Source: an uncultured virus (IMG/VR IMGVR_UViG_3300044695_008744)
Taxonomy: Duplodnaviria > Heunggongvirae > Uroviricota > Caudoviricetes
Reading direction: 5' to 3' (one strand)
DNA: 64,000 nt
Virus record (IMG/VR): IMGVR_UViG_3300044695_008744
Made by a program: the position numbers and the translations under genes. How positions within the stretch are numbered: the first letter of the stretch is position 1; each line of letters begins with the position of its first letter. Positions 3,348 through 51,800 of the stretch are shown here, piece by piece. A model generated the notes under the pieces. It ran no database searches. It was not told where the DNA came from and saw nothing but the letters and a program-made list of their open reading frames with translations.

Positions 3348-4501
3348 TGTGGCTCTGTGTATATTGTGGCTTCTACGGGGGCATATAAACCAGCTCTATT
3401 TATATCGAATTCATTTTGATTATAATACTCTTTACTATCAGGATCTGAAGCCTGTAATAATGCTATGAACTCTACAACGTGTACAAAACTTGCACTTGAA
3501 GCGTCAACTTTTACATCAAATGATTGCAAAGTAACATTTGACATAGGAAAATAAAAGGGTCCCCCAAAATAAAGTATAAATTGTTTGTGATTGCCAGCTG
3601 AGAAGTAAATTGAAAGATTTTCAGATGAAATAAACTTAAAACTACCAGTTACTTTACGTTTTTTATAAGATAAAAACTTAATGCCATCTGATAAAAATTT
3701 ATTTACACCATCATTGGCTGTATAAACTTGAGTAAAAGAATTTGAAATACTCAAATTCATTGATAGAATATTTATGCCTTCTGCAACAAAATAAGATTGT
3801 AAAGATTGTGTGGAAGTGCTAATATCTGAAGAATTTTGTGCTACATTTAAGCTTAAAATACAATCATAATTTTTTGCTGTTCTGTAAGTTTGCCTATAAC
3901 TGTTTATATCATAATTTGGCAACTCACTAGGTGGTAAAATTTGACTGCCACCTTCAAAATCTATAGTCACAGAAACGTCTCCTCCTTCTGCTAAACTTAT
4001 ATCAAATTTTTCAACAAATAAAGGACCTCCTAAATTTTTTGGGTTTACATCAACATTTAAAAAGAAAGGCACAAATTGATATACTGCCAATCTCCACAAT
4101 AACTGCTGAAAATAAGAATTTTGGTCATTCTCTACATAAGGAACTAGTACATTAGTAGTTAAACTGCCAGCTGTTTTAATCTTATCACTTCTAGCAAGAG
4201 CAATAAAATCTGAATATGTAAATGTATTTACTGGTTGGAACAAATCAATTTTATTAATAGTTACACTGTTAATCATCCCCAAATAATAATTTGTGTTATC
4301 ATGTGCTGTTTGTTTTAAAGAGCCTTTTTGAGCTTGATCAAAAAAATCTAATGATGGTGTGTAAACTTTTACTAAATCTTTGTTTATCAAATTCTTGAAA
4401 ACATTCAAAAAGGGAATATAAGAAAAATTTTGAGTGTAAAAGTATGGATCTTTATGAATGGCAATTGCTACCTTTTTAAGCGATGAAGGATTAATTATCA
4501 T
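3344..4501 (-). CDS. tail tube-like structural protein
   Basis: C-terminal pattern SMNLSISNSF...KRKVTGSFKF...LYFGG resembles phage tail tube folds; apparent paralog of 4872-6164. Confidence 0.5.
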   Translation of the reverse strand: MIINPSSLKKVAIAIHKDPYFYTQNFSYIPFLNVFKNLINKDLVKVYTPSLDFFDQAQKGSLKQTAHDNTNYYLGMINSVTINKIDLFQPVNTFTYSDFIALARSDKIKTAGSLTTNVLVPYVENDQNSYFQQLLWRLAVYQFVPFFLNVDVNPKNLGGPLFVEKFDISLAEGGDVSVTIDFEGGSQILPPSELPNYDINSYRQTYRTAKNYDCILSLNVAQNSSDISTSTQSLQSYFVAEGINILSMNLSISNSFTQVYTANDGVNKFLSDGIKFLSYKKRKVTGSFKFISSENLSIYFSAGNHKQFILYFGGPFYFPMSNVTLQSFDVKVDASSASFVHVVEFIALLQASDPDSKEYYNQNEFDINRAGLYAPVEATIYTEPQ

Positions 4502-4872
4502 ATCACTGTTTTAATCCACTCCTTGCAAACAAGCTTTATTAAGTTGTAATTTAATTTATTGATATCAACTTGATTAATAATAATTGGATCCAAATTTAGT
4601 TCTTCCGAAAACTGTAAATTATTTATTGCAGAAAGAAAAATATTTCTGTAAAGAATTGAAGTTCTTACAAAAGGCTTTCCAGTAATATGATTTATGAAAG
4701 TTGCCTCCTCTAAGGCTTCACTTATAATGTCAAATCTTGGTCCTTTTGCATGAAAATGTATTTTATGTTTATTGTTTTCTTTTGGATAGTCAACAATTAA
4801 TAATCCATTATCTAGTTTCACCACACTACATTCGGTTTCAAATTCATACAAGTCATTGTTCAAAATAATCAT
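4498..4872 (-). CDS. hypothetical protein (possible tail assembly chaperone)
   Basis: Lies between the two tube-like genes with overlapping start/stop codons. Confidence 0.45.
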   Translation of the reverse strand: MIILNNDLYEFETECSVVKLDNGLLIVDYPKENNKHKIHFHAKGPRFDIISEALEEATFINHITGKPFVRTSILYRNIFLSAINNLQFSEELNLDPIIINQVDINKLNYNLIKLVCKEWIKTVI

Positions 4873-12600: not shown

Positions 12601-14329
12601 ATCCGAATTTCAAATTTAATGTGTAATCCAGTGCTAATCCTTGCCCTTGACTGTAAGGATCAATTCCATTGCAAACTAAGCTAATTGGTTTATAGATTTC
12701 GAAAGCAGTGTCGGAGGGTAAATTATAATCGTTATATAAGGTTAATCTACCCTGATCAAAAATCAAAAACTCTTTACTTGAGACTATATGCACCGCTTCA
12801 TAAATGGATTTTTCTTCATATTCAGAAAAATTCAATGGTGGAGTGTCAGTGGTTCCATAAGGTTGTGTGAAATTTTTCAAGGTGTTCCTTGAAATTATTA
12901 AATTTTCGCCAGCAAAGTATTCATCGACATTATTGAAATTTACTCCAAAAAACAAATCAGCTATAAAATTATCTAAAGTGTTTAGATATAATGATTTCAA
13001 TTCATTTAATGCTAAAGAATAATTCTTTGCTGCTGGTAAATATTCAGCAAAAGCTATCCACAAATTTTCATCTGGAATTACTTTAACAAAAGCTGAAGGC
13101 ACAATTTGTGTATTGTAAACAATGCTGTAATCATTTTGTAAATTTATTTTTTTAGGATTTTTTTCAAAAATAAAAATATTAGCTGGAACATTTCTGTTAT
13201 ATAATTTTTCTAAACTTTTAATATTTAAAGAACTAGCAAAATTTGATTCAAAAAGATTTTTCAAATCATAGCTTGCATTTGCTGAAGTATTTTGTTTTGT
13301 ACCCGATGTAATAAAATCTCCATAAAAATACACATAATTTTGATTTGAACTTAATATATTATTGAAGTTAACATTTTCATAAGCAAAATATCTTGTTGGC
13401 TGGCTTTGTTCTGAAAATACTCCATCAATTAGAGTTTCATTTATTCTGTCTGGAGCCCATAAATATGGATCACTTTCAACAAAACACTGTGTTGTGAACC
13501 CGATAGAATATGGGGTAGTATTTGACCAAAAATTCTTTCTGCCTGAAATTGAAGTGATATTTGTTTGAATTGAAGATGTTGTTAAAATACCTAATTTATT
13601 TATGAAATTTTGAGTACCAACATATTTAATTGATGAGTTGGTGTTTGAATTTGTGGAAATAAAACTTGAATCATTATTTCCCCAATAAAAAGTTAGATTG
13701 TAATTAGATATTGAAGAATTAATATAGTTTAGTTTTATGAGTAAATTTGTTTGTGGCTGAGCATAAGACCATGCATAATCAAATCTTATCAAATTAGAAT
13801 TTACATACCCACTAGAAATATTAAAATTATCATTGCCATATACTGCAAAGTCTATTGGAGCATCAAAGAGATGAGAATTAAATTGATTTCCAGATAAATC
13901 AAAACTTGAATAAGGAATGGATATTACAGAAGTTTTATTTATACCCACTGCACTAAATGAGTAAATTTCTCCAGACAAAAAAGTACTGCTAAAGCCAAAA
14001 TTGTAATTTAAGATTGTGGTTGAAATATGTGTACATAAATTAAATGAAGGATAATTTTCAGTGTTTGTTAATCCTATTTTGACATTTTGCAGGCTTTGAA
14101 GCAAATAGTCTGTTTGGTTAGATTGTATCTCTGATTGATACGGTGCAAGAATAGAAGCCAAATCATAATTTTCTGTTACCGTGGATCCTATTATTTCCGA
14201 AGCTGATTCAAAAAAATGAGCACTTACACCAATATTTTTATTCATGTCACCAATTGTTTCATCCAACACTTGATAAGTGATTGCATTAGAGTGAACAATA
14301 TTTGTGAAGAATTTTTGTATCGTTGTCAT
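9605..14329 (-). CDS. large virion structural protein
   Basis: 1574 aa, N/S/T-rich beta-strand composition, one IKILNPGSNF-type repeat. Confidence 0.55.
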   Translation of the reverse strand: MTTIQKFFTNIVHSNAITYQVLDETIGDMNKNIGVSAHFFESASEIIGSTVTENYDLASILAPYQSEIQSNQTDYLLQSLQNVKIGLTNTENYPSFNLCTHISTTILNYNFGFSSTFLSGEIYSFSAVGINKTSVISIPYSSFDLSGNQFNSHLFDAPIDFAVYGNDNFNISSGYVNSNLIRFDYAWSYAQPQTNLLIKLNYINSSISNYNLTFYWGNNDSSFISTNSNTNSSIKYVGTQNFINKLGILTTSSIQTNITSISGRKNFWSNTTPYSIGFTTQCFVESDPYLWAPDRINETLIDGVFSEQSQPTRYFAYENVNFNNILSSNQNYVYFYGDFITSGTKQNTSANASYDLKNLFESNFASSLNIKSLEKLYNRNVPANIFIFEKNPKKINLQNDYSIVYNTQIVPSAFVKVIPDENLWIAFAEYLPAAKNYSLALNELKSLYLNTLDNFIADLFFGVNFNNVDEYFAGENLIISRNTLKNFTQPYGTTDTPPLNFSEYEEKSIYEAVHIVSSKEFLIFDQGRLTLYNDYNLPSDTAFEIYKPISLVCNGIDPYSQGQGLALDYTLNLKFGYNNQNYLNKILYLMASKYLISESDYNNRIFNNQDTIGYYYLANPDSTDYSDYSVSSINEFRLYGYSGLIPNLKDGSVVPILTKSFSPKDSTKYTYEEFIDYLRSQGITNSDDINEAIQDYLDAGNSFYTINLDKFSNNFNALTSISICAANYVVNQPKYWNEGFDEKFLEPAQIDDTGFTNLTANILSGIATAFVGSPPYTISNIPVGYNCRLKSVTVNSFGSSQIPGGYTAWFLPPDNQKSDEQPAQIEFSILSSGILDPSSIKILNPGSNFYFGFSTFLNVGFTSTGIGTSSASITLVMDNVSEFSATVNTSKIITSFTQTKPPAIGYNAGFKFNPRALVGLGYTSFADIDIKINNAPTIDSFLIAPLNLQPGDLENINNFSTPNTNLSNLNYTAGSQTYLLYEDEIFNSITVPYSFGNKQISFVTISCKLIELNGKNPSGDIQFKIYALEDNIKTEVASSDRISITEISRNSYSDLNIPIYFNFANTLVSLSQSVYYVSIKQNLTNCFLSIKGSFTGISTSDYSILSSDIYNDPNYFIIAGGISTNGYDLDIAKAPINLSNIFGSDLLISDTIGANINLRKNSEYEGANNLSLKISTTYNSETGIIFSNLVNVASLSSTFTGVAFTFNSTLYSGTIINSASLISANPLFINQAFASRSLSQYDGVLLGMSTLSQIGLSNTSVNFNFVFNKLFNQVSPDIYGAFNYTDKSQFGLAKPNRLRESDPVNVVDGYWSYKSDLVNQPLSIYPRAFLNNTSVIGTSLPVYQYLGYSHDIYVNIGYNSNGIYNQETITLNAYPKWKVTWMDRTTSNYKNFSIFNVIQQSYVDSINYLQGSANTIIGISTGVKSGIFEGTFQPSGNLASTVPVSITIGTSAGVQLYINNNSQPLIDTFSTISTGIIVSSSSLSVSERSLPVYFKVYYFSLSTSMIQVNWNVGAGNTLINYNSISSGITPNPVSLNSGAPIDNIVFFNVSKTLEDAESVNSGYPPGDSFVIRSS

Positions 14330-18000: not shown

Positions 18001-18423
18001 ATGAATAAAAACATATCTACAAAAATTGTATCAGCTCTTTCGATCTTTGCTCTGGCAACCACTTCTTTTGCACAATCTACTTTCGGGAGACCTCACATTA
18101 ATTCAGTGACTGGTAGAGTTAATGTTTTACCAAATGTAAGAGTTATTGATTTTGGAAGACTCATTTATCAAGGAAGAATGGACGTAAATTCTACTATTGA
18201 TAGAATCAGATTGGGTAGAAAGCTAAATCATAAAAATGACGGATCATTTTTTTCAAATTTTCAACGAAGACTTCCAGCAAGCCCAGACACACAATACTAC
18301 AGAGAGTTTGTTCATCAAATGAATGGTTTTCCTTTTCCTGGACCACAAAGAGTGGTAATTGGCAAAAGAGGAGAAGTGTGGTATACAGGTGATCATTACA
18401 GTTCTTTTTTCAAAGTAAGATAA
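18001..18423 (+). CDS. secreted guanyl-specific ribonuclease (barnase/RNase Sa family)
   Basis: Sec signal peptide ending TTSFA; FSNFQRRLP, YYREF, GPQRVVIG, WYTGDHYSSF with catalytic E, R and H; SD AAGGA. Confidence 0.85.
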   Translation: MNKNISTKIVSALSIFALATTSFAQSTFGRPHINSVTGRVNVLPNVRVIDFGRLIYQGRMDVNSTIDRIRLGRKLNHKNDGSFFSNFQRRLPASPDTQYYREFVHQMNGFPFPGPQRVVIGKRGEVWYTGDHYSSFFKVR

Positions 18424-18442: not shown

Positions 18443-19462
18443 ATGAGTAAGATTGAATCCGACAAAGAAAAAAAACAATCTATAAAACCTATTGCTAAAA
18501 AAACTGATTTTAATGGTGATAAAATAACACATTCTGAAACCGAAAAAACCAGAGGTGTTGTTGTATTTTTATCATCTGACTTAAGTGGTGCACCAGAAGT
18601 AATAGATGTTCACGACGGTACAGTAGATTTGGATGCTACCAACTCTCTAAAGAATGACACCGAATCAGAAAACTTGGTATTACAAAGCTTATATTTTGAT
18701 TCAATTTCGCCTGAAATCAATTGTAAACAACAAAAAATGTATCTAAAAGGCTCAGGTTTAAATTCAAAATTACCTGAGATTAAATGCAAAACAACACTCA
18801 GGGAGCGAATAGAAGATAAAAAAAACTCAATGCTGTCTAGAACTATTTTTTTGATAAATTTGTTCTTTTTGAAGAAAAAGTACACAAATTTCTTTACAAA
18901 TATTTATTCAGAAATAATACCAGAAGATGTTTTCCAAGCAAAGGTTTTGAATTTGACTAAGTTCAATCGCAATAGATTGATGAAAAAGTATGGTATCAGT
19001 GAAGATGAGCTCAATTTTATTGCTTTTGCAAGATTCTCGTACCCATTTATAACTAGAGGTGAAAAAGAATGGAGCAAAATCGAAAAAAATGCTGATGCGT
19101 TCATTGCAAGAAAATGGATAACAGAAGACATTAAAGGTAATTTCAAAATAAATGTTAGCAAAGTTTATACATTCAGGGAAAAAATTATTTTTCCTAATCA
19201 ATTTAAAGACATTGTTATCAAAAAAGCTTTTAATTGGAAAATCTTAAATAAGATTCTGAGAAAAGTTGAAAGAAGTGCAAAAACTCAAGTGCACGTTTAT
19301 ACTATTTCTCAAATTAGCAAACTTCCTTTTACCCAATTTGGAAATAGTAATATTGCCACTCATCCTCCTATTAGTAAAAATGATGAACAAATAAGTAGTT
19401 TGATCAAGAAAAAACCAATTGAAGCAATGAGTAGCATTAATAAAAAAAATTTTTTAAAATAA
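18443..19462 (+). CDS. hypothetical basic protein
   Basis: 339 aa Lys-rich ORF directly upstream of tRNA array 1; TATAAT just before the ATG. Confidence 0.6.
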   Translation: MSKIESDKEKKQSIKPIAKKTDFNGDKITHSETEKTRGVVVFLSSDLSGAPEVIDVHDGTVDLDATNSLKNDTESENLVLQSLYFDSISPEINCKQQKMYLKGSGLNSKLPEIKCKTTLRERIEDKKNSMLSRTIFLINLFFLKKKYTNFFTNIYSEIIPEDVFQAKVLNLTKFNRNRLMKKYGISEDELNFIAFARFSYPFITRGEKEWSKIEKNADAFIARKWITEDIKGNFKINVSKVYTFREKIIFPNQFKDIVIKKAFNWKILNKILRKVERSAKTQVHVYTISQISKLPFTQFGNSNIATHPPISKNDEQISSLIKKKPIEAMSSINKKNFLK

Positions 19463-19484
19463 AATAAAATAAGAAACTTTTTTA

Positions 19485-19513
19485 AAGGAAAAACCGTCTA
19501 AGATTGTGTAATA
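19485..19513 (+). promoter_or_regulatory. putative promoter of tRNA array 1 (AAGG-N21-AATA)
   Basis: Matches the motif recurring upstream of many genes in the window. Confidence 0.5.
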
Positions 19514-19529
19514 TAAAAAAGGAACTAAA

Positions 19530-19583
19530 ATGACAAATTCGCTACTCCATTCATATCCAGCCTACGCACCCTCATCGGGGTAG
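19530..19583 (+). CDS. attenuator leader peptide of tRNA array 1 (MTNSLLHSYPAYAPSSG)
   Basis: SD AAGGA 19519-19523, ATG 19530, TAG 19581-19583; codons CTA, CAT, TAT, TAC, CCA and GCA match the five downstream anticodons. Confidence 0.85.
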   Translation: MTNSLLHSYPAYAPSSG

Positions 19584-19612
19584 TGGCTCGTTGCGTATTT
19601 GACAAGCTACAG

Positions 19613-19646
19613 AACCCCGAAGGACTCAAATCTTTCGGGGTTTTTT
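19613..19646 (+). terminator. intrinsic terminator (attenuator) upstream of tRNA array 1
   Basis: AACCCCGAAGGA-ctcaaa-TCTTTCGGGGTT 12-bp stem followed by a T tract. Confidence 0.9.
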
Positions 19647-19652
19647 ATTTTT

Positions 19653-19664
19653 GAACATTGACAA
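19653..19664 (+). promoter_or_regulatory. boxA-like antitermination element
   Basis: GAACATTGACAA resembles rrn boxA; 11 nt before the first tRNA, same spacing as array 2. Confidence 0.55.
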
Positions 19665-19675
19665 TTTAATAAAAT

Positions 19676-19754
19676 CTATGCGTTGAGGAGTTTGGCTTAC
19701 CTCGCGTCCCTTGGGAGGACGAGTACGCAGGTTCAAATCCTGCCGCATAGACCA
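19676..19754 (+). tRNA. tRNA-Pro(TGG)
   Basis: Acceptor CTATGCG/CGCATAG, anticodon arm CGTCC-CT TGG GA-GGACG, GGTTCAAATCC, CCA end. Confidence 0.92.
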
Positions 19755-19758
19755 ATTT

Positions 19759-19843
19759 GGGGGCATCGCATAGTGGCAATTGCTGGAGACTGTAAATCTC
19801 CCCTCGCGAGAGTTCGTAGGTTCGAGTCCTTCTGCCCCCACCA
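19759..19843 (+). tRNA. tRNA-Tyr(GTA)
   Basis: Acceptor GGGGGCA/TGCCCCC, GGAGA-CT GTA AA-TCTCC, long variable arm, CCA end. Confidence 0.92.
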
Positions 19844-19850
19844 AAATTTT

Positions 19851-19930
19851 GCCGAAGTGGTGGAATGCATACACGCTAGTCTTAGAAACTAGTGCCTTAG
19901 GGCATGTGGGTTCAAATCCCACCTTCGGTA
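19851..19930 (+). tRNA. tRNA-Leu(TAG)
   Basis: Acceptor GCCGAAG/CTTCGGT, CTAGT-CT TAG AA-ACTAG, variable arm; followed by TCA rather than CCA. Confidence 0.9.
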
Positions 19931-19936
19931 TCAAAT

Positions 19937-20010
19937 AAGCAAGTAGCTCAATTGGTAGAGCCTTTTGGTTGTGACCCAGAAGCGTGTGAGTTCAAATCTC
20001 ACCTTGCTGA
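19937..20010 (+). tRNA. tRNA-His(GTG), atypical ends
   Basis: TAGCTCAATTGGTAGAGC D arm, TTTGG-TT GTG AC-CCAGA, GTGAG-TTCAAAT-CTCAC; 1:72 mismatch, no G-1/C73, no encoded CCA. Confidence 0.75.
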
Positions 20011-20019
20011 CTCAGTTTA

Positions 20020-20096
20020 GGGGCTGAAGCTTATTAGGGAAAGCGTCTGATTTGCAATCAGAAGTCTTGCGGGTTCGAAACCCGTCAGCTCCACCA
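20020..20096 (+). tRNA. tRNA-Ala(TGC)
   Basis: Acceptor GGGGCTG/CAGCTCC with G3:U70, TCTGA-TT TGC AA-TCAGA, CCA end. Confidence 0.92.
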
Positions 20097-20097
20097 A

Positions 20098-20415
20098 TTA
20101 CAAATCATAAAATCTCTTTGGAGTGTAAATATATTTCATAGGCTGAACACCTACCTCGTCAGGTTGAGTTGTAGGTTCTTCAGCTAATTCGCCTAATACC
20201 GCTGGTGGCTCAGGAATAGGGGGATTAATTTGTGCTGGTTCGTTAACAACATTATTTTGTTTACGATTATATTCTCTTGCCAATTCTTTACAAGTTTCGC
20301 AAGCTCTTTCATCAAATTGCCAGATTGTGTTTCCGCCAGGAAGTTGTTCAATGAAGCATCTACACCCTTCATGCACAGGAGGTAAGATTTGTTGTTGTGA
20401 ATATTTATACCACAC
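20098..20415 (-). CDS. small Cys/His protein with Mu gpF/SPP1 gp7-like PPxHxxCRC motif (GTG start MWYKYSQ; shorter than the ORF-track call)
   Basis: PPVHEGCRC and ACETC motifs; GTG at 20415 follows TAGG-N22-AATC; the longer start would run into the array 2 promoter/leader. Confidence 0.6.
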   Translation of the reverse strand: MWYKYSQQQILPPVHEGCRCFIEQLPGGNTIWQFDERACETCKELAREYNRKQNNVVNEPAQINPPIPEPPAVLGELAEEPTTQPDEVGVQPMKYIYTPKRFYDL

Positions 20416-20465
20416 AATCTGATTTTCAAGAAAAAAAACAAAAAAACCTAATTTTATAGAACAAA

Positions 20466-20493
20466 AAGGAGATTGTGTCGTATAATCATAATA
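20466..20493 (+). promoter_or_regulatory. putative promoter of tRNA array 2 (AAGG-N20-AATA, with TATAAT at 20481-20486)
   Basis: Recurrent motif plus a perfect sigma70-type -10 hexamer. Confidence 0.55.
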
Positions 20494-20504
20494 AGGAATT
20501 AACA

Positions 20505-20573
20505 ATGAAATTAAATTTGCAGGGCAGTATGGTGGGATGTTTTATTTGGTCAACCCAAGGGGGTAGTGGCTAG
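20505..20573 (+). CDS. attenuator leader peptide of tRNA array 2 (MKLNLQGSMVGCFIWSTQGGSG)
   Basis: SD AAGGA 20493-20497, ATG 20505, TAG 20571-20573; the run AGT ATG GTG GGA TGT TTT ATT TGG TCA plus CAG/CAA matches all ten canonical downstream tRNAs. Confidence 0.88.
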   Translation: MKLNLQGSMVGCFIWSTQGGSG

Positions 20574-20601
20574 AAACCTGCTGTTAGCAAAAATTTCAAC
20601 C

Positions 20602-20638
20602 AAAATCCCTGAAGGCAAAATCTTCAGGGATTTTTTTT
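20602..20638 (+). terminator. intrinsic terminator (attenuator) upstream of tRNA array 2
   Basis: AAAATCCCTGAAGG-caaaa-TCTTCAGGGATTTT stem followed by a T8 tract. Confidence 0.9.
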
Positions 20639-20640
20639 AT

Positions 20641-20652
20641 GTTCTTTGACAA
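20641..20652 (+). promoter_or_regulatory. boxA-like antitermination element
   Basis: GTTCTTTGACAA closely matches rrn boxA (GYTCTTTRAMAA); 11 nt before the first tRNA. Confidence 0.65.
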
Positions 20653-20663
20653 TTAAATAGTGA

Positions 20664-20739
20664 GCGATATTGGTGTTAATGGTTAGCATCACTGCCTTCC
20701 AAGCAGAGGGTGCCAGTTCGAATCTGGCATATCGCTCCA
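20664..20739 (+). tRNA. tRNA-Gly(TCC)
   Basis: Acceptor GCGATAT/ATATCGC, loop CT TCC AA, U73, CCA end. Confidence 0.92.
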
Positions 20740-20747
20740 GATTATGT

Positions 20748-20823
20748 GGCTTTCAGGTGTAACTGGTGTGCACGAAGTGCTGAAAACGCTTAGGACATAG
20801 TTCAATTCTATGGGGAGCCACCA
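20748..20823 (+). tRNA. tRNA-Phe(GAA)
   Basis: Acceptor GGCTTTC/GGGAGCC, AAGTG-CT GAA AA-CGCTT, CCA end. Confidence 0.88.
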
Positions 20824-20832
20824 CAATTTTGA

Positions 20833-20919
20833 GGAAGGTAATGCTGAATGGTTTTGGCGAATGTTTGCTAAACATTTCGGGCTGAAAGGTCTCTGGTTCA
20901 ATTCCAGTGCCTTCCTCCA
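20833..20919 (+). tRNA. tRNA-Ser(GCT)
   Basis: Acceptor GGAAGGT/GCCTTCC, AATGT-TT GCT AA-ACATT, long variable arm, CCA end. Confidence 0.88.
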
Positions 20920-20924
20920 TACAA

Positions 20925-21012
20925 GGGGAATTCGCATAGTGGTCTAGTGCGGCTGTCTTGAAAACAGTAGGGCTGAAAGGTTCCGTGGGTTCGAATCCTA
21001 CATTCCCCTCCA
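20925..21012 (+). tRNA. tRNA-Ser(TGA)
   Basis: Acceptor GGGGAAT/ATTCCCC, GCTGT-CT TGA AA-ACAGT, long variable arm, CCA end. Confidence 0.92.
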
Positions 21013-21020
21013 AGTTTTGT

Positions 21021-21094
21021 GTTGTCTCTAGCTCAGTTGGTAGAGCATTCCATCGCGAGGAAAGGCGAAGGTTCAATTCCTTCGGGCAACACCA
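21021..21094 (+). tRNA. aberrant tRNA-like gene, identity undetermined (nominal anticodon CGC, Thr-like body)
   Basis: Intact D arm, T arm and ACCA end, but only a 4-bp anticodon stem TTCC-ATCGCGA-GGAA and one extra base before U8; no G3:U70. Confidence 0.6.
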
Positions 21095-21100
21095 TTTTAT

Positions 21101-21187
21101 TGAGGAATAGTGTAATTGGTAACACGCTAGGTTTTGGCCCTAGAGACAGAAATGCTCGTCCACGTTCGAATCGTGGTTCCTCAGCCA
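21101..21187 (+). tRNA. tRNA-Gln(TTG) with unusually long variable region
   Basis: Acceptor TGAGGAA/TTCCTCA, G73, CTAGG-TT TTG GC-CCTAG, 16-nt variable region, CCA end. Confidence 0.85.
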
Positions 21188-21190
21188 AGC

Positions 21191-21265
21191 ATCCGAGTAG
21201 CTCAATGGTAGAGCCCAATCTTGATAAGGTTGAGGTTTTTGGTTCAAGCCCAAACTCGGATACCA
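21191..21265 (+). tRNA. tRNA-Ile(GAT)
   Basis: Acceptor ATCCGAG/CTCGGAT, CAATC-TT GAT AA-GGTTG, CCA end. Confidence 0.9.
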
Positions 21266-21266
21266 C

Positions 21267-21341
21267 ATCCGCGTAGCTCAACGGTAGAGCAAAATCCTTA
21301 CAAGATTGAGGTTTTTGGTTCGAATCCAAACGTGGATACCA
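21267..21341 (+). tRNA. tRNA-Val(TAC)
   Basis: Acceptor ATCCGCG/CGTGGAT, loop CT TAC AA, CCA end. Confidence 0.9.
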
Positions 21342-21346
21342 ATTTC

Positions 21347-21420
21347 GGCAAATTAGCTCAATGGCAGAGCGGAGGTATCATAAGCCTTTGATAAAAGTTC
21401 GATTCTTTTATTTGCCCCCA
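21347..21420 (+). tRNA. tRNA-Met(CAT), elongator-type (Ile2 not excluded)
   Basis: Acceptor GGCAAAT/ATTTGCC fully paired (not initiator-like), GAGGT-AT CAT AA-GCCTT, CCA end. Confidence 0.8.
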
Positions 21421-21423
21421 TAA

Positions 21424-21497
21424 GCACGATTAGCTAAATGGTAAAGCAAGGGTCTGCAAAACCTTTATCGCTGGTTCGATTCCAGCATTGTGCTCCA
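21424..21497 (+). tRNA. tRNA-Cys(GCA)
   Basis: Acceptor GCACGAT/ATTGTGC, U73, AGGGT-CT GCA AA-ACCTT, CCA end. Confidence 0.92.
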
Positions 21498-21500
21498 TAC

Positions 21501-21575
21501 ACCGCTGAGAGTAGGTTGTTTCTAAAGAGTCTCCAAAACTTTTTTACCTGGGTTCAAATCCCAGCGGCGGTGCCA
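21501..21575 (+). tRNA. tRNA-Trp(CCA)
   Basis: Acceptor ACCGCTG/CGGCGGT, G73, AGAGT-CT CCA AA-ACTTT, atypical D arm, CCA end. Confidence 0.85.
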
Positions 21576-21578
21576 ATC

Positions 21579-21887
21579 TCACGACACAATCTTAATAATA
21601 TGCGGTTCTGTTTCTGAGATATTGAATATACCATCACCCAATTGATATTTTTTACCTAAATCATCAATGAAATCCTGAAATTGCGTTTCAGCATTTTCAA
21701 TCACTTCTTGGTTTTGTGCAAATTCTGCCTGTAGGGATTGCATTTGCTTTTCAGTTTTTCTCATCATATCAAATAAATCTGATCTTTTTCCTTTCAGATT
21801 AAGAATACCAGCTCTCATTTGGGTATAGTTGTTGAATTCTTCTTTGGAAAGTGCTTTTTCAGATTGTGTGTCGCTTTTGAACTTCAT
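21579..21887 (-). CDS. coiled-coil hypothetical protein
   Basis: 102 aa heptad-rich ORF downstream of the amidase, convergent on array 2. Confidence 0.6.
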   Translation of the reverse strand: MKFKSDTQSEKALSKEEFNNYTQMRAGILNLKGKRSDLFDMMRKTEKQMQSLQAEFAQNQEVIENAETQFQDFIDDLGKKYQLGDGIFNISETEPHIIKIVS

Positions 21888-22809: not shown

Positions 22810-23355
22810 ATGACTTTGAATTGCAATATTCCACATTTTGAATGTTTTGTTAAAAAAGAATTTCTTACCAACTTTACACAATCTGATGAGTTGATAAAAG
22901 CCAAAGCTTTTGCAGTGTCGAGCACAAGAGGTCAAGTGTTACAGTTTCATGTTTTGACAGAGCATGGAGCAATGTTTTCTAAACTTCCAGTGCATGCTTT
23001 AGTTCTTAAAAAAGATTATGAAAAAATGGAATTAAATCAGCTTGTCACTTATGATACTTTTAGTTTTCATTTGTCAAACATTACTTATGATTATTTAAAA
23101 TATTTGACATGCACATACTTTGCTGGTGATAAACGCGAAAAATATGGGGCTACATATTTTACAACAGTTGATTTTTATGATTCCGAGTATGCAGATCACC
23201 CTGGTGTCACTAAATGTTGTCATATTTTGTTTTTAGATAATGGCAATATTGCGGCAGCACCAAACAATAGAATCCTATGGAACGACACAGGATTAAAGTC
23301 AGATGTAACGAAAATTGATTATAAGCCTTTAAATAAAATCTTTACAGTGGAATGA
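22810..23355 (+). CDS. conserved phage protein of unknown function
   Basis: LNCNIP...FVKKEFL...FHVLTEHGAMFSKLPVHAL...HILFLDNGNIAAAPNNRILW resembles a widespread uncharacterised aquatic-phage family. Confidence 0.6.
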   Translation: MTLNCNIPHFECFVKKEFLTNFTQSDELIKAKAFAVSSTRGQVLQFHVLTEHGAMFSKLPVHALVLKKDYEKMELNQLVTYDTFSFHLSNITYDYLKYLTCTYFAGDKREKYGATYFTTVDFYDSEYADHPGVTKCCHILFLDNGNIAAAPNNRILWNDTGLKSDVTKIDYKPLNKIFTVE

Positions 23356-24137
23356 AAATATTTTTTGATCATATTCTTTTTCAGCAAACTAATTACAATT
23401 TTAATCATACACTTGTATCTGCAATTTTTGAAGAAAATGAATATAATTATGCATTAGAAAATGGATGGTTTCCAGATAATTTTTGGATAAATTCATCTAC
23501 AAGTCATTCAATAAGATGTGAAAAATTGGGCGAATTTGTTTGGTCTCCAATAAGATCTTCTAGAATTAAAGTGGAGGATTTTGTACTTGACAAAAAAGAT
23601 AGAAGATTACTTAAAAATAATATTGATGTAGAAAAGCAAATTGTTTCGCAAATAGATACTGTAGAAGTGTTTGAAGTTTATAAAAAATATATTTGCGCAA
23701 AAGGATTCGATGATTTTAAGGATTCATTAGAAGATTTCAAACATAGTTTTTGCCGAGAAGATTTTCATTTTTTACTTTACAAACAAAACACAATCTTAAT
23801 AGGCTTTTGTATTGTGCAACCATTTGGAAATAATCTAGTGTCTTATCAATTTTGTTGGGATTATGAAAATCCAAAATTAAGTTTGGGAAAATTTTCACAA
23901 ATTCAAGAAATAGAATATGCTAAATCACTCAACATGAATTATGTTTACATAGGATGCATTGCTGAAAAAGAAGGAATGTATAAAAGTAATTTTTCTGGAT
24001 TTGAATATTTTAATGGAAGAGAATGGAGAAAGAAAGATAACTTAATCGAAAAATGGCTTTTGAATGATTCAGATTGTGTGAGTATTGACAGATTGTGTGA
24101 GTTAGAAAAGGAATACATCAAAGACTACCAGGTTTAA
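23352..24137 (+). CDS. aminoacyl-tRNA-protein transferase, Ate1/Bpt family (GNAT fold)
   Basis: ALENGW, RSSRI, VYKKYI, FCWDYENPKLSLGKFSQIQEIEYAK...YVYIG...MYKSNF match the ATE_N/ATE_C pattern. Confidence 0.8.
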   Translation: MKIFFDHILFQQTNYNFNHTLVSAIFEENEYNYALENGWFPDNFWINSSTSHSIRCEKLGEFVWSPIRSSRIKVEDFVLDKKDRRLLKNNIDVEKQIVSQIDTVEVFEVYKKYICAKGFDDFKDSLEDFKHSFCREDFHFLLYKQNTILIGFCIVQPFGNNLVSYQFCWDYENPKLSLGKFSQIQEIEYAKSLNMNYVYIGCIAEKEGMYKSNFSGFEYFNGREWRKKDNLIEKWLLNDSDCVSIDRLCELEKEYIKDYQV

Positions 24138-48823: not shown

Positions 48824-51800
48824 ATGTCGTGGAATTTGCAAATTGTCCCAAAAGGACTCCTATTAAGTAGATATATTAAAAACGTTATTTTGTTAAATCC
48901 AAATAATGTTAAAAATGTCGAGAACAATCCATTGATTCTTGATCAATATCAAACTTATAATGCGGCAAATAACACAGCAAATATTGTTTTTCAGCTCGCA
49001 GTTTATAACACAAATCCACAAAATCAAGCTAGTGAGCCGACAATCACTTCTATAAATTTCATTCAAATCTCTAACGATCCTTTGTTTAATGAAGTTTATT
49101 ACTTAATTCCAGCTAAGTTTTCACAAGCCTATAATCTGCAAACTGATTATGAAGTAGACTTAAGCGCTTACTCATTTACACAAACTGCGTTGCCTGCTTC
49201 CCAATCAGTAACTTTCACTGAAAGCAGTGGCACAGGAAATATTTCGATTAAAAACTGGGCTCTTTCAGGCTCTTCTGGCGCTAAAAAAGTATACTTCAGC
49301 ATAAATGCCAATTTAAGTGATGGCACAAATGCCACATATCCAGAGGGGCTTGATGTGTATGATGAAATCATTGTATGTTCAAGTTTTATTTCGTCCCCTG
49401 GAGTTCCACAAACTTTAGCTAAATCTAAACAAAATTATTCATCTTCTCCATTATATTTTGAAGCAGACGTGGCAAGCAATTCTGGAATTAATCAAATTGA
49501 TGATTATGGAGTTGCATCTTATTTTTGGGATGGATTAATTCTCAAAACCACTGATAATGTTTATAGAAATAATTATTCACAAGAAAATATTCAATTGTTT
49601 AATTCTATTTCGCCAAAAGCATCAAATTTAAATCAAGAAAAACTTCCAGTGGTTTTTTCTACTACTTTAACAACAACTAATTGGTCATCTTCTGCATATA
49701 AAAAATATATAACAGCAAATGCTTTTACTTTGACAGCTTCTGATAATGTTTATTTCTTTGAATGTTATGTTAACAATTACTCTAACACATTAAATTATGT
49801 TAGTGGGAAGAGTTTTTTTTATGAATTTAATGTTGTAAACAGCACAGGCTCCACTAAGTATTTGAGACAGCAATTGGTTTTTGATGAACAGTTTAACACA
49901 TTGGTGATCTATATTTCAATTGATGATACAACATGGTCTAGTGATTCAAGCTATGTCCCTTCTGCATTATATAAAACGATCACAATCACAAACCCAGATG
50001 TAATTGGTCAAATTACACAATCTGGAAGCTTCATTACATTTATTGAACTTTTAGATTCTGCAAATAAAATCTTACAATCTAAAATCATATTCAAGCCTCA
50101 AAATTCCACTGATAGTTTTGTGGTATCAGAAACACTTTTCACTTCTAATACTTTTAATTTAGCAAATGCCTACGGTGAATTCAGATTCTTTTTACAGAAC
50201 TCAACATACACTACCGTTCTTGAATCAGTGCAATATGGATTATGCCAGGGGGCAATTTCGGCTGCAGTAATGCCTAATGATAAAATCATTACAGATTATA
50301 GTAGTAAAGTAGAAAATTCGATTTACAATTTCAATGACTCTGCAAAACTTAATACTTGGTTTACAATTTCTAACTCTCCAGCCTCAGGTGTTGTTAATAC
50401 GACAACATCTACTGTGCAGCTTTTTAATAATCAAGAAAATGATGGAATAAATAATTTATCTGCTATTGAAATACAATCTTCAGTGCCAACTTTTTCAGTG
50501 GATTCCACGCTGATTTCTCGCTTTAGAGTTTCAAGTGCCAATTCTGCTGTATTAAAAACTGCTTATTCGTTTGATAGCAATTTAAATTATGAAAATTTTG
50601 TTTTTAATGATTTACTCCAAACCTCTAGTGGAGTATATTTACCGCAAAACAACGCATTATATGAATACACCACTTCTCTAAGCTGGACTGGATCAAGCAG
50701 ATTTGATTTAAATGTTTTTAATGTTGGTCTTGGGCAAACTTGTTCAATTACCACAACAAAAACTAACAACTTATTTTTCTATTCTCAATCAAACAATAGT
50801 GGAACATTAACACCACCAACAATCATTAAAACTGTATCAAATATTTCTAGTACAAATATTTTTAATGCTTGGATTAGTACAAATGGCATTTCCACAGCTT
50901 TCATTGTTCAAAGTTCTTTATCTGTCAAAAATAAAGGGTTAGTTCCTATTACAATCACTTCATCGGCAGGATTAAGTACAATTTTACCTGGTCAACCTTT
51001 TGTAAATTCAATTTCTACTAATTCTTTGCAACCAACACAAATTATTGTATCTGCTCCTTCAAGTTCTATATCTAATAGTCTAAATTTCTTATACGATTTT
51101 GGCAAGATTGGGACAATCACTGATTTAAGTTTAAAAATTCAGATTGCAACACCACCTGAGTGTCCATCTACTTTACCATCCTTCCAATACTCAGTGGAGG
51201 TTTCGGACGATTTTATCAATTGGACTTTTGTTTCATCACTCACTGCCACTGATACTTTTTATCCATCAACAGGCGATTTGCTGTTGAGTTTTAGTGATAT
51301 TGATCAAGAAAATGTTAGATATGCAAGAGTGAGATTGTATTATAATATTGCTGTAACTTTTGATCCAAGAACAATCTATAGATATTCAAGTTTGCAAGGG
51401 ACAATCTCTTCCTCTTCTTCAATTACAAATACTGGAAAACTCATCTTTGGATTTACTGATACTAGTGCTAAAAATTCATCTTTAAATCAACTTTACAATC
51501 AGCCAACATATTTGAGAAAATATGTGACAAATTCAAGTGTTGTAAATGGAATAATTTTTGATTTCTCAGAATATTCAACAACAATCGGTGGACCAGTTTA
51601 TTTAAGTTTACTCACTGAAACTGAAGAAAAAAGATTTTACACAATCGCTAACAATTTCTCATTAAGCACAGACTATACATTCTCATTTAGTGTGCAGAGG
51701 ACAAATTCTGATAATGCTTTTCATTTGAAACCATTTTTTACTCTAAGTGGGGGAAATCTAAATGAACTATCATTAAGTCTTGATGATATTCTCACAGAAC

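What the first reader, a model, noticed from the sequence alone, without database searches (positions are those of the whole stretch)
20505..20573. Leader 2 lists its array: nine consecutive codons each read by a different downstream tRNA
Codons 8-16 (20526-20552) are AGT ATG GTG GGA TGT TTT ATT TGG TCA. They are decoded by Ser(GCT), Met(CAT), Val(TAC, wobble), Gly(TCC), Cys(GCA), Phe(GAA), Ile(GAT), Trp(CCA) and Ser(TGA), nine different tRNAs of array 2 with no repeats. Gln(TTG) is covered by CAG (codon 6) and CAA (codon 18). Both Ser isoacceptor boxes appear separately, which points to sensing of tRNA species rather than amino acids. The internal ATG and absence of ATA favour the CAT tRNA being elongator Met rather than Ile2. 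Rare residues C, W and M together in a 9-codon window are unlikely by chance.
Basis: seen in the sequence. Interest (0 to 1): 0.93.

Follow-up and report, generated by a model that had tools for sequence, protein, structure and literature searches.

The report
Leader-peptide attenuator gating phage tRNA array
In front of a block of tRNA genes in a large lake-water phage sits a tiny reading frame spelled in the codons those tRNAs read, followed by a switchable transcription stop, so the phage probably makes these tRNAs only when ribosomes decode those codons slowly.

Summary
Codons 8-16 of the 22-codon ORF 20505-20573 are each read by a different tRNA of the downstream array.

Chance is an unlikely cause. 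All 10 were covered in 113 of 4,000,000 random ORFs. The leader ranks first of 2389 small ORFs in the 347-kb genome.

The ORF is part of a full attenuator layout: a -10 box, an AGGAA box, the ORF, a conserved 12-mer overlapping the stop codon, a 14-bp terminator with a T8 run, then the tRNAs. A paralogous leader (19530-19583) precedes array 1 (Pro, Tyr, Leu, His, Ala) and is rich in exactly those codons.

Sixteen distinct leaders from related phages keep this composition through synonymous changes, residue swaps and in-frame indels. In folding, an antiterminator forms only when a ribosome stalls at codons 7-15.

Weak points:
- there is no RNA evidence;
- there is no base-pair covariation;
- the terminator wins at equilibrium;
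- array losses in relatives are not mirrored in the leaders.

I found no published account. This scan's earlier notes report the same design in other phages. I rate it a new variant of leader-peptide attenuation.

The parts
20470..20486 (+). Promoter-like element of leader 2: AGATTGTGT, two bases, then TATAAT (-10 box at 20481-20486)
   Evidence: Read. The same arrangement stands before leader 1 and before the divergent gene 20098-20505(-). The sigma-70 scan did not list it, because there is no -35 match. Not shown to be active.
20493..20498 (+). AAGGAA box 6 nt before the start codon (possible ribosome-binding site)
   Evidence: An AGGAA box is present before all 16 distinct leaders. Only 47 of 219 long ORFs of the genome have an SD-like 4-mer, against 12% background, so the box stands out.
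20505..20573 (+). Leader 2 ORF, 22 codons plus TAG: MKLNLQGSMVGCFIWSTQGGSG
   Evidence: Length differences among relatives inside the ORF are 3 and 6 nt, so the frame is kept; indels outside it are 1-2 nt. The stop is kept as TAG or TAA at the same place.
20526..20552 (+). Codons 8-16, each read by a different tRNA of array 2; overlaps the stall-sensitive window (A-site codons 7-15)
20545..20556 (+). Region 1: 5' strand of the 1:2 hairpin (UUUGGUCAACCC)
   Evidence: MFE folds. 96% of cells are paired across 9 leader-2 variants (helix 3).
20560..20571 (+). Region 2: conserved 12-mer GGGGTAGTGGCT, which pairs either with region 1 or with region 3 and abuts the stop codon
   Evidence: Identical in leader 1 (19577-19588), where it is read in another frame. 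These are its only two copies in the 347-kb genome.
20600..20610 (+). Region 3: CCAAAAUCCCU, 3' strand of the antiterminator and base of the terminator's 5' arm
   Evidence: Folds of the transcript before the 3' arm emerges. 97.5% of cells are paired in helix 1.
20602..20638 (+). Intrinsic terminator: 14-bp stem, 5-nt loop, T8 run
   Evidence: Terminator scan and folds. There is one compensatory U-A to C-G change in the G001 copy (pair 120/138).
20646..20658 (+). TTGACAATTAAAT motif between the terminator and the first tRNA; role unknown
   Evidence: Present after both terminators and in all relatives. A one-mismatch copy precedes the Leu(UAA)-like tRNA elsewhere in the genome. No -10 box lies at promoter distance.
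20664..21575 (+). Array 2: Gly(TCC) Phe(GAA) Ser(GCT) Ser(TGA) X(CGC) Gln(TTG) Ile(GAT) Val(TAC) Met(CAT) Cys(GCA) Trp(CCA)
19501..19670 (+). Paralogous leader 1: AGATTGTGT/-10 box, ORF 19530-19583 (MTNSLLHSYPAYAPSSG), 12-mer 19577-19588 with the stop TAG inside it, terminator 19611-19644, TTGACAATTTAAT 19658-19670
19676..20096 (+). Array 1: Pro(TGG) Tyr(GTA) Leu(TAG) His(GTG) Ala(TGC)

Best explanation
Leader 2, like its paralogue leader 1, is a ribosome-mediated transcription attenuator that gates a phage tRNA array.

Proposed mechanism. Transcription starts a few bases after the TATAAT box, and a ribosome loads on the short ORF. If it decodes the ORF quickly, it reaches codons 16-22 or the stop and covers the conserved 12-mer (region 2). 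The 14-bp terminator then forms and RNA polymerase stops before the tRNAs. If instead the ribosome stalls with one of codons about 7-15 in its A site, it melts the region 1:2 hairpin while leaving region 2 free. Region 2 pairs with the base of the terminator's 5' arm (region 3). The base of the terminator stem cannot form in time, and polymerase reads into the array.

Consequence. The stall-sensitive codons are those read by the array's own tRNAs. The array would therefore be transcribed when those decoders are scarce and shut off as they accumulate. That is a negative feedback on tRNA supply, codon by codon.

What is shown in sequence: the layout, the codon-tRNA match and its improbability, conservation of codon composition, and the predicted alternative pairings. 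What is inferred: promoter activity, translation of the ORF, stalling, and kinetic antitermination.
For: 1. Codon match. The leader covers 10 of 11 array tRNAs. The leader ranks 1 of 2389 small ORFs.

2. Paralogue. Leader 1 covers 5 of 5 tRNAs of array 1 (P 8.3e-4 strict, 7.6e-3 loose). Codons decodable by either array sort by own array: leader 1 has 9 for its own array against 5 for the other, and leader 2 has 0 for the other against 16 for its own (Fisher P 1.4e-4 loose, 0.0034 strict).

3. Layout. Both leaders share the -10 box, the AGGAA box, a stop codon placed on the shared 12-mer (read in different frames), a strong terminator and T-run, with the tRNAs 10-11 nt after the TTGACAAT motif.

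4. Internal control. The other tRNA units of the same genome (Asp-Asn-Thr, Lys, Arg, Met-Glu, Leu(UAA)-like and Met) follow a -10 box directly, with no ORF or terminator.

5. Relatives. There are 7 distinct leader-1 and 9 distinct leader-2 sequences.
- All 7 leader-1 variants keep exactly 9 of 16 own-set residues, although positions 6, 8 and 12 change (LLHS, LRHL, LRHP, LSHL).
- Leader-2 variants keep 14-16 of 19-21.
- One lineage swaps Met and Ile (..SMVGCFIW.. to ..SIGCFMW..).
- The G001 leader replaces QGSMV by SQFSQ, and every new residue is still in the array's set.
- Synonymous changes occur at cognate codons (GTG/GTA, TGT/TGC, CTA/CTT/CTC, CCA/CCG, GCC/GCT/GCA).
- Indels inside the ORF are 3 and 6 nt.

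6. Folding. With RNA up to the ribosome's leading edge blocked and the 3' arm not yet made, the summed probability of region 2:3 pairs in the window's leader 2 is 0-0.5 for A-site codons 2-5, 1.2 for codon 6, 2.9-3.9 for codons 7-10, 4.8-5.8 for codons 11-15, and 0-0.19 from codon 16 to the stop. Leader 1 and the G001 leaders behave alike.

7. Pairing across variants. The proposed pairs are standard in 91-97% of cells, against 29-63% when the partners are slid.
Against: 1. No expression data were obtained.

2. At equilibrium the complete leader always folds into the terminator, whatever the ribosome position: the 2:3 pairing sum is 0.0-0.02. Antitermination would have to be kinetic.

3. The relatives are too close for covariation. 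There are 0 pairs with changes on both sides in the antiterminators. The terminator-state structures have 1 and 3 such pairs, no better than shuffles.

4. Leaders and arrays do not co-vary tightly among relatives.
- Three differences agree: G001 lacks the Ile tRNA and the Ile codon; L073 lacks the Val tRNA and the Val codon; G001 gains Leu(GAG) and a second CTC codon.
- Five disagree: L066 and G001 have the Val tRNA but no Val codon; L072/L052 lost the Gly tRNA but keep 5 Gly codons; L053 lost Gln through Trp to an HNH-type ORF but keeps the codons; L066/L070 keep only Pro and Tyr in array 1 but keep Leu, His and Ala codons.

5. The CGC/TGC tRNA of array 2 has no codon in any leader 2.

6. Codons 15-22 also form regions 1 and 2, so part of the codon content is constrained by RNA structure.

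7. In the strict-footprint model, which leaves RNA behind the ribosome free to pair, the window's own leader 2 shows only partial antiterminator formation.

8. The promoter scan did not call the promoter.
Confidence: 0.72

Rival explanations
1. It is the same attenuator, but it reports general translational capacity or amino-acid charging rather than the supply of particular tRNA species. The many different codons would simply make it a broad sensor of slow decoding.
For: The layout is that of classical amino-acid-sensing leaders. A sub-threshold whole-length match of 20486-20640 to Rfam His_leader (26.9 bits against a 49-bit threshold, E 0.1) fits that architecture only loosely. Leaders stay unchanged when arrays lose tRNAs, as expected if the pooled decoding rate is what matters.
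Against: Each leader is sorted to its own array (Fisher P 1.4e-4). The isoacceptor-level choices (CTN against TTR Leu codons, both Ser boxes) would not be needed by a general sensor.
Confidence: 0.12
2. The ORF is not translated. The segment is a constitutive partial terminator, a processing element or a protein-binding element, with the 12-mer and TTGACAATTAAAT as binding sites. The codon match would then be coincidence or a by-product of RNA-structure constraints.
For: The 12-mer is conserved in two reading frames, so it is an RNA or DNA element. TTGACAATTAAAT is unexplained by the attenuator model. The terminator wins at equilibrium. There is no proof of translation.
Against: The leader ranks 1 of 2389 ORFs. 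The match is replicated in leader 1 and in G001. Swaps preserve composition, synonymous changes occur at cognate codons, only in-frame indels occur inside the ORF, and the stop is conserved as TAG or TAA.
Confidence: 0.1
3. It is a direct RNA-tRNA sensor of the T-box type: uncharged tRNAs pair with the displayed codons and stabilise an antiterminator without a ribosome.
For: The codons cognate to the downstream tRNAs sit in a row, and GGGUAGUGGCU contains UGG, which could in principle meet an NCCA end (by eye only).
Against: No T-box or other riboswitch family matches at the gathering threshold or at E<=1. There is no specifier-loop architecture. A start codon, the AGGAA box, frame conservation and stop placement are all unnecessary for such a sensor.
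Confidence: 0.03
4. The ORF encodes a functional micropeptide, and its position before the array is incidental.
For: The C-terminal half (GCF[IM]WST) is conserved.
Against: The N-terminal half is replaced between G001 and the window while composition is kept. The conserved C-terminal codons coincide with RNA regions 1 and 2. Leader 1 has an unrelated peptide but the same RNA layout.
Confidence: 0.03

Closest known systems
Multivalent leader-peptide transcription attenuators of enterobacterial amino-acid operons (thrL, ilvL of ilvGMEDA; also trpL, hisL, pheL, leuL).
   Same: A promoter, a short ORF carrying regulatory codons cognate to the operon's product, alternative hairpins, an intrinsic terminator before the structural genes, and a stop codon placed so that a terminating ribosome blocks the antiterminator.
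   Different: The controlled genes are tRNAs, not enzymes. Up to ten different tRNA species are represented once or twice each, rather than runs of one to three amino acids. The terminator is far more stable than the antiterminator. The Rfam His_leader and Thr_leader matches fall well below threshold (26.9 against 49 bits; 21.4 against 55 bits on the opposite strand).
pheM leader of the pheST operon (phenylalanyl-tRNA synthetase).
   Same: A leader-peptide attenuator that controls a component of the decoding machinery for the very codons in the leader.
   Different: It controls a synthetase, senses one amino acid, and is chromosomal.
T-box riboswitches
   Same: They sense tRNA status and act by a terminator/antiterminator choice upstream of translation-related genes.
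   Different: They bind tRNA directly without a ribosome, and they regulate synthetase and amino-acid genes. No T-box match was found here.
The inducible long tRNA array (trn operon) of Anabaena sp. PCC 7120
   Same: A supernumerary, horizontally mobile tRNA array that is silent by default and switched on when translation is impaired.
   Different: [quoted passage not shown] The words leader, attenuat* and terminator occur 0 times in the first paper, and leader, attenuat*, small ORF and uORF occur 0 times in the second.
Antibiotic-responsive leader peptides (ermBL, bmrB and the like)
   Same: Ribosome stalling on a short leader ORF switches downstream expression (listings and abstract starts).
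   Different: There the stall is caused by a drug and a nascent-peptide motif, not by scarcity of decoders.

Membership tests
Leader-peptide (ribosome-mediated) transcription attenuator | A short ORF with a start codon and ribosome-loading signal inside the 5' leader of the transcript | tested here: met
   An ATG is preceded by AGGAA at 6-9 nt in all 16 distinct leaders. The frame is preserved through 3- and 6-nt indels. Translation itself is not shown.
Leader-peptide (ribosome-mediated) transcription attenuator | Regulatory codons cognate to what the operon supplies | tested here: met
   10 of 11 array tRNAs are covered; P 2.8e-5 to 1.4e-4; rank 1 of 2389; leader 1 covers 5 of 5.
Leader-peptide (ribosome-mediated) transcription attenuator | An intrinsic terminator between the leader ORF and the structural genes | tested here: met
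   A 14-bp stem with a T8 run at 20602-20638, and a 14-bp stem at 19611-19644.
Leader-peptide (ribosome-mediated) transcription attenuator | A mutually exclusive antiterminator whose formation depends on ribosome position | tested here: inconclusive
   The antiterminator is predicted before the 3' arm is made, and only for A-site codons 7-15 (leader 2) or 2-12 (leader 1). It never forms in equilibrium folds of the full leader. No pair has changes on both sides.
Leader-peptide (ribosome-mediated) transcription attenuator | A promoter directly upstream, so that the leader is the 5' end of the operon transcript | tested here: inconclusive
   TATAAT-like boxes lie 18-20 nt before the ATG in both leaders and in relatives. 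The consensus scan did not list them. There is no transcription-start data.
Leader-peptide (ribosome-mediated) transcription attenuator | Read-through rises when the cognate charged tRNA is limiting | not testable with these tools
   This needs coupled transcription-translation assays or infected-cell RNA.
Rfam His_leader (RF00514) / Thr_leader (RF00506) | A score at or above the family's gathering threshold | tested here: not met
   26.9 bits against 49, and 21.4 bits against 55 on the wrong strand. Nothing matched at the gathering threshold.
T-box riboswitch | A match to the T-box covariance model (specifier loop and T-box bulge) | tested here: not met
   No match at the gathering threshold in 11 loci, nor at E<=1 in window 19440-21640.

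The most novel reading that the evidence does not exclude
The two leaders are codon-resolved sensors of the infected cell's decoder pool. When particular host tRNAs fall, for example through host anticodon-nuclease defences or through the phage's own RNase (a barnase-family gene lies two genes upstream), ribosomes stall at exactly those codons and the phage switches on the replacement tRNAs. That would be an on-demand counter-defence circuit and a self-limiting feedback for tRNA genes.
Probability: 0.25. Interest if true: 0.95.

Novelty: new variant of a known kind. Interest (0 to 1): 0.85.

Why it matters
Why phages carry tRNA genes, and how they time their expression, are open questions. tRNA genes are textbook examples of promoter-level, growth-rate control. 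Here the logic of the trp and his attenuators appears to be turned on the tRNAs themselves. The leader acts as a test message written in the codons of the downstream tRNAs, so supply would be matched to demand codon by codon.

If this is true, it gives three things:
- a direct, testable read-out of which decoders a phage treats as limiting;
- a possible link to tRNA-targeting defence and counter-defence;
- a compact natural part of about 170 nt for building tRNA-responsive switches.

Six literature searches found no account of such control for tRNA genes. One search, combining 'tRNA array' with 'leader peptide', returned 0 papers.

Tried and rejected
- **Cultured relatives.** blastn of 19400-21700 against 50,697 phage records found only tRNA-to-tRNA matches. 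tblastn of the 859-aa ORF found nothing. No cultured relative was identified.
- **Protein-based search for related loci.** The upstream 339-aa ORF gave 0 confirmed loci.
- **Pattern scans.**
  - Of 37 viral loci, only 2 (both on the G001 contig) carry leaders.
  - All 4 genome-contig hits are chance.
  - In the metagenome scan, 14 contigs carry true leaders and 5 are chance hits.
- **TTGACAATTAAAT as a promoter for the tRNAs.** Rejected: no -10 box lies at 16-18 nt, and the tRNA starts 5-6 nt after the motif.
- **The ~98-nt element between the leader-1 terminator and tRNA-Pro in G001 and L051.** It is not a tRNA and has no fold better than shuffles (z -0.02 and +0.26).
- **RNA evidence.** No RNA holder is listed as such; two runs are only guessed to be RNA.
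- **Identity of the CAT tRNA (Met or Ile2).** I found no usable test.
- **Earlier notes of this scan.** There were no notes for this genome or this sequence.

Full report
**Setting**

The window is bases 151736-215735 of a 347,392-base virus record (G000; IMG/VR class provirus; CheckV completeness 99). Its G+C content is 33.6%. The sequence recurs in lake-water metagenome runs: 17 runs hold at least 99% of the sampled words, though these may include the source sample. PHROGs and Pfam name few of its genes. Those named include an amidase endolysin, a ferredoxin-like protein, a barnase-family ribonuclease and an ATE_C transferase. No cultured relative was found.

The genome encodes 23 tRNAs by ARAGORN plus a tmRNA. 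It also has a Ser(GCT) tRNA and a split Leu(UAA)-like gene seen by other means. Together these cover all 20 amino acids.

**The observation**

The ORF at 20505-20573 reads MKLNLQGSMVGCFIWSTQGGSG. Codons 8-16 (20526-20552) are AGT ATG GTG GGA TGT TTT ATT TGG TCA. The array at 20664-21575 holds Gly(TCC), Phe(GAA), Ser(GCT), Ser(TGA), a tRNA with anticodon CGC, Gln(TTG), Ile(GAT), Val(TAC), Met(CAT), Cys(GCA) and Trp(CCA).

Two corrections are needed:
- The array has 11 tRNAs, and the CGC one has no codon in the leader.
- Two calls are weaker than the rest. Ser(GCT) is missed by ARAGORN; it scores 42.2 bits on Rfam tRNA-Sec (below the threshold of 47), and an identical copy scores 33.4 bits on the tRNA model. 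Trp(CCA) is called by ARAGORN only.

**Is it more than chance?**

I drew random ORFs from the codon usage of 167 long ORFs of the genome (75,285 codons).
- A random 21-codon ORF covered all ten tRNAs in 113 of 4,000,000 draws under strict wobble, and in 560 of 4,000,000 if U34 reads four codons.
- A run of nine consecutive codons on distinct array tRNAs appeared in 1 of 2,000,000 draws (strict) and 9 of 2,000,000 (loose).
- As an empirical null, I scored all 2389 ATG ORFs of 12-30 codons in the six frames of the genome. The leader is the only one covering ten array-2 tRNAs, and the only one with a distinct run of nine; the next best is seven.

**A second, paralogous leader**

Upstream of array 1 (Pro, Tyr, Leu(TAG), His, Ala(TGC); 19676-20096) lies the ORF 19530-19583, MTNSLLHSYPAYAPSSG. 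It covers all five tRNAs of that array (P 8.3e-4 strict, 7.6e-3 loose). Among the 2389 small ORFs, 18 (strict) or 69 (loose) do as well.

Codons decodable by either array sort by own array. Leader 1 has 9 for its own array and 5 for the other. Leader 2 has 0 for the other array and 16 for its own (Fisher P 1.4e-4 loose, 0.0034 strict).

The two leaders align over their whole length and share these features:
- AGATTGTGT, two bases, then a -10-like box;
- an AGGAA box;
- the 12-mer GGGGTAGTGGCT, whose only two copies in the genome are these;
- a 14-bp terminator with a T-run;
- TTGACAATT(T)AAAT just before the first tRNA.

The 12-mer is read in different frames. In leader 1 its TAG is the stop codon. 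In leader 2 the stop is the TAG that begins at its last T. It is therefore conserved as nucleic acid, not as peptide, and in both cases a terminating ribosome would sit on it.

The other tRNA units of the genome (Asp-Asn-Thr, Lys, Arg, Met-Glu, Leu(UAA)-like and Met) follow a -10 box directly, with no ORF or terminator. The leaders are thus specific to these two arrays.

**Relatives**

Pattern scans found one related viral contig (G001) and 14 metagenome contigs with true leaders; 5 further contigs were chance hits. All 4 genome-contig hits and 35 of 37 hits of a looser viral scan were chance.

The real hits give 7 distinct leader-1 and 9 distinct leader-2 sequences. These leaders change while keeping their composition:
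- All 7 leader-1 variants have exactly 9 of 16 residues from {P,Y,L,H,A}. Positions 6, 8 and 12 vary (LLHS.., LRHL.., LRHP.., LSHL..AL).
- Leader-2 variants have 14-16 of 19-21 residues from the array-2 set.
- One lineage turned ..S-M-V-G-C-F-I-W.. into ..S-I-G-C-F-M-W... The Val codon is lost by a 3-nt deletion, and Met and Ile swap places.
- In the G001 leader the first half is rewritten (QGSMV to SQFSQ), and every new residue is still one the array serves.
- Synonymous changes sit on cognate codons (GTG/GTA, TGT/TGC, CTA/CTT/CTC, CCA/CCG, GCC/GCT/GCA).
- Length differences inside the ORF are 3 and 6 nt, whereas indels in the spacer, loop and T-run are 1-2 nt.
- The stop codon is kept as TAG or TAA at the same place.
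- All Leu codons of leader 1 are CTN in 7 of 7 variants, matching Leu(TAG) and Leu(GAG). CTN makes up only 37% of Leu codons in phage genes. The window's leader 2 uses TTA and TTG in its first five codons.

**Leaders and arrays do not track each other closely**

Arrays in relatives are remodelled, often by HNH-type ORFs.

Three differences agree with the leaders:
- G001 has neither the Ile(GAT) tRNA nor an Ile codon.
- L073 has neither the Val(TAC) tRNA nor a Val codon.
- G001 has an extra Leu(GAG) tRNA and two CTC codons instead of one.

Five differences do not:
- L066 has the Val tRNA but no Val codon.
- G001 likewise has the Val tRNA but no Val codon.
- L072/L052 lost the Gly tRNA but keep five Gly codons.
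- L053 lost the Gln, Ile, Val, Met, Cys and Trp tRNAs to a 228-aa ORF but keeps the codons.
- L066/L070 keep only Pro and Tyr in array 1 but keep Leu, His and Ala codons.

The leader therefore looks older and more stable than the present arrays. The co-evolution test is not passed with this shallow sample.

**RNA structure**

Both leaders fold better than shuffles (z -3.6 and -3.4; 0 of 200 shuffles fold as well). Three pairings can be drawn:
- region 1 (inside the ORF) with region 2 (the 12-mer);
- region 2 with region 3 (the spacer and the base of the terminator's 5' arm);
- the terminator itself.

In leader 1 the 2:3 helix is GGGGU-A-GUGGCU-c-GUU ... GAC-a-AGCUAC-AGA-ACCCC, 14 pairs in all.

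I folded the transcript as it exists before the terminator's 3' arm is made, with RNA up to the ribosome's leading edge (A-site +13) blocked. For the window's leader 2, the summed probability of region 2:3 pairs by A-site codon is:

| A-site codon | Summed 2:3 pair probability |
|---|---|
| 2-5 | 0-0.5 |
| 6 | 1.2 |
| 7-10 | 2.9-3.9 |
| 11-15 | 4.8-5.8 |
| 16 to stop | 0-0.19 |

The non-array codons 2-5 fall outside it. Leader 1 is permissive for codons 2-12 and closed from codon 14 onward. The G001, L053 and L058 leaders behave alike.

The caveats are real:
- With a strict 28-nt footprint that leaves the RNA behind the ribosome free, the window's leader 2 gives only partial antiterminator formation.
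- In equilibrium folds of the complete leader, the terminator forms whatever the ribosome position. The switch would have to be kinetic.
- Across variants the proposed pairs are standard in 91-97% of cells, against 29-63% for slid partners. However, there are 0 double changes in the antiterminators. The terminator-state structures have 1 and 3, no better than shuffles.

**Comparison with known systems**

Rfam finds only tRNAs at gathering thresholds in 11 loci. At E<=1 the leader gives a whole-length but far sub-threshold match to His_leader (26.9 against 49 bits, E 0.1) and no T-box match. It therefore works like a leader-peptide attenuator without belonging to a curated family.

Six full-text searches returned no paper describing leader-peptide or attenuator control of tRNA genes. 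The closest regulated tRNA array, the Anabaena trn operon, is controlled at its promoter by direct repeats and the repressor TrcR. For PMC8421152 I saw passages found by term search. For PMC10272220 I saw the title and start of the abstract, plus a term search with no hits. Subscription-only papers and supplements were not searched.

Earlier AI notes of this scan describe the same design in several other phages and in one bacterial genome. I did not test those loci, and they are not independent evidence. They do mean that the scan has found this before on other DNA.

**Verdict**

The best reading is a ribosome-mediated attenuator whose test message is written in the codons of the tRNAs it gates (confidence 0.72). 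It is a new variant of a known kind of control. What is missing is any RNA or ribosome data, covariation from more distant relatives, and a cultured host.

Noticed in passing
whole genome G000; in the window e.g. 19501-19509, 20470-20478, 20427-20434 (-), 21586-21593 (-): The 8-mer AGATTGTG occurs 223 times on the + strand and 166 times on the - strand of the 347-kb genome, against about 13 in shuffles. It abuts -10 boxes in both orientations, and its inverted form (CACAATCT) follows several tRNA units. It also recurs about every 160 nt across G000 14.4-32.7 kb.
   Followed up: partly
window 18001-18423 (+) and 23352-24137 (+): A 140-aa ORF two genes upstream of array 1 matches Pfam Ribonuclease PF00545 (barnase/T1 family, E 8.5e-9). 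A 261-aa ORF downstream matches ATE_C PF04377, an aminoacyl-tRNA protein transferase (E 8.4e-14). So RNA- and tRNA-related genes flank the arrays.
   Followed up: no
window 21021-21094; L073, L064, L053: The tRNA with anticodon CGC has T3-A70 instead of the G3:U70 alanine mark (by eye). Its anticodon differs among close relatives: TGC in L073 and L064, TAC in the 3'-truncated L053 copy. It is the only array-2 tRNA with no codon in any leader.
   Followed up: partly
window 21101-21187; L011 (G001) and L072: tRNA-Gln(UUG) is 87 nt long with a 17-nt variable arm. In G001 and L072/L052 the same slot holds a different tRNA-like gene with a 20-24-nt insertion in the anticodon loop, whose anticodon is ambiguous. 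The G001 Gly tRNA also carries a 12-17-nt insertion.
   Followed up: partly
L053 oriented 4083-4769; L011 between Ser and the CGC tRNA; L066/L070 between Tyr and leader 2: ORFs of HNH homing-endonuclease type sit inside the arrays of relatives. In L053 one replaces six tRNAs, and the neighbouring tRNA is truncated at its 3' end.
   Followed up: partly
window 19658-19670 and 20646-20658; G000 13651-13663: The motif TTGACAATT(T)AAAT lies between each terminator and the first tRNA, and a one-mismatch copy precedes a third tRNA unit that has no leader. No -10 box lies at promoter distance. Its role is unexplained.
   Followed up: partly
G000 13664-13963 (outside the window): A tRNA-Leu(UAA)-like gene appears to be split by roughly 230 nt in the anticodon loop, as with the group I intron of cyanobacterial tRNA-Leu. 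This is by eye only; I ran no covariance model on it.
   Followed up: no
G000 321534-321917 (outside the window): The phage carries a tmRNA gene with tag peptide AKKNRRNGFGSAQAGFAMVA.
   Followed up: no
L011 5960-6058 (-), L051 3400-3500 (-): A conserved element of about 98 nt lies between the leader-1 terminator and tRNA-Pro in G001, L051, L064 and L073, but is absent from the window. It is not a tRNA and has no fold better than shuffles.
   Followed up: yes
G000, e.g. around 50466-50530 and many other sites: A recurring block (TTTTCCAGGTTTAACACAATCTGATTATAATAGATATG) places TATAAT only 4 nt before the ATG of dozens of genes. This suggests leaderless mRNAs. SD-like motifs precede only 47 of 219 long ORFs.
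   Followed up: no
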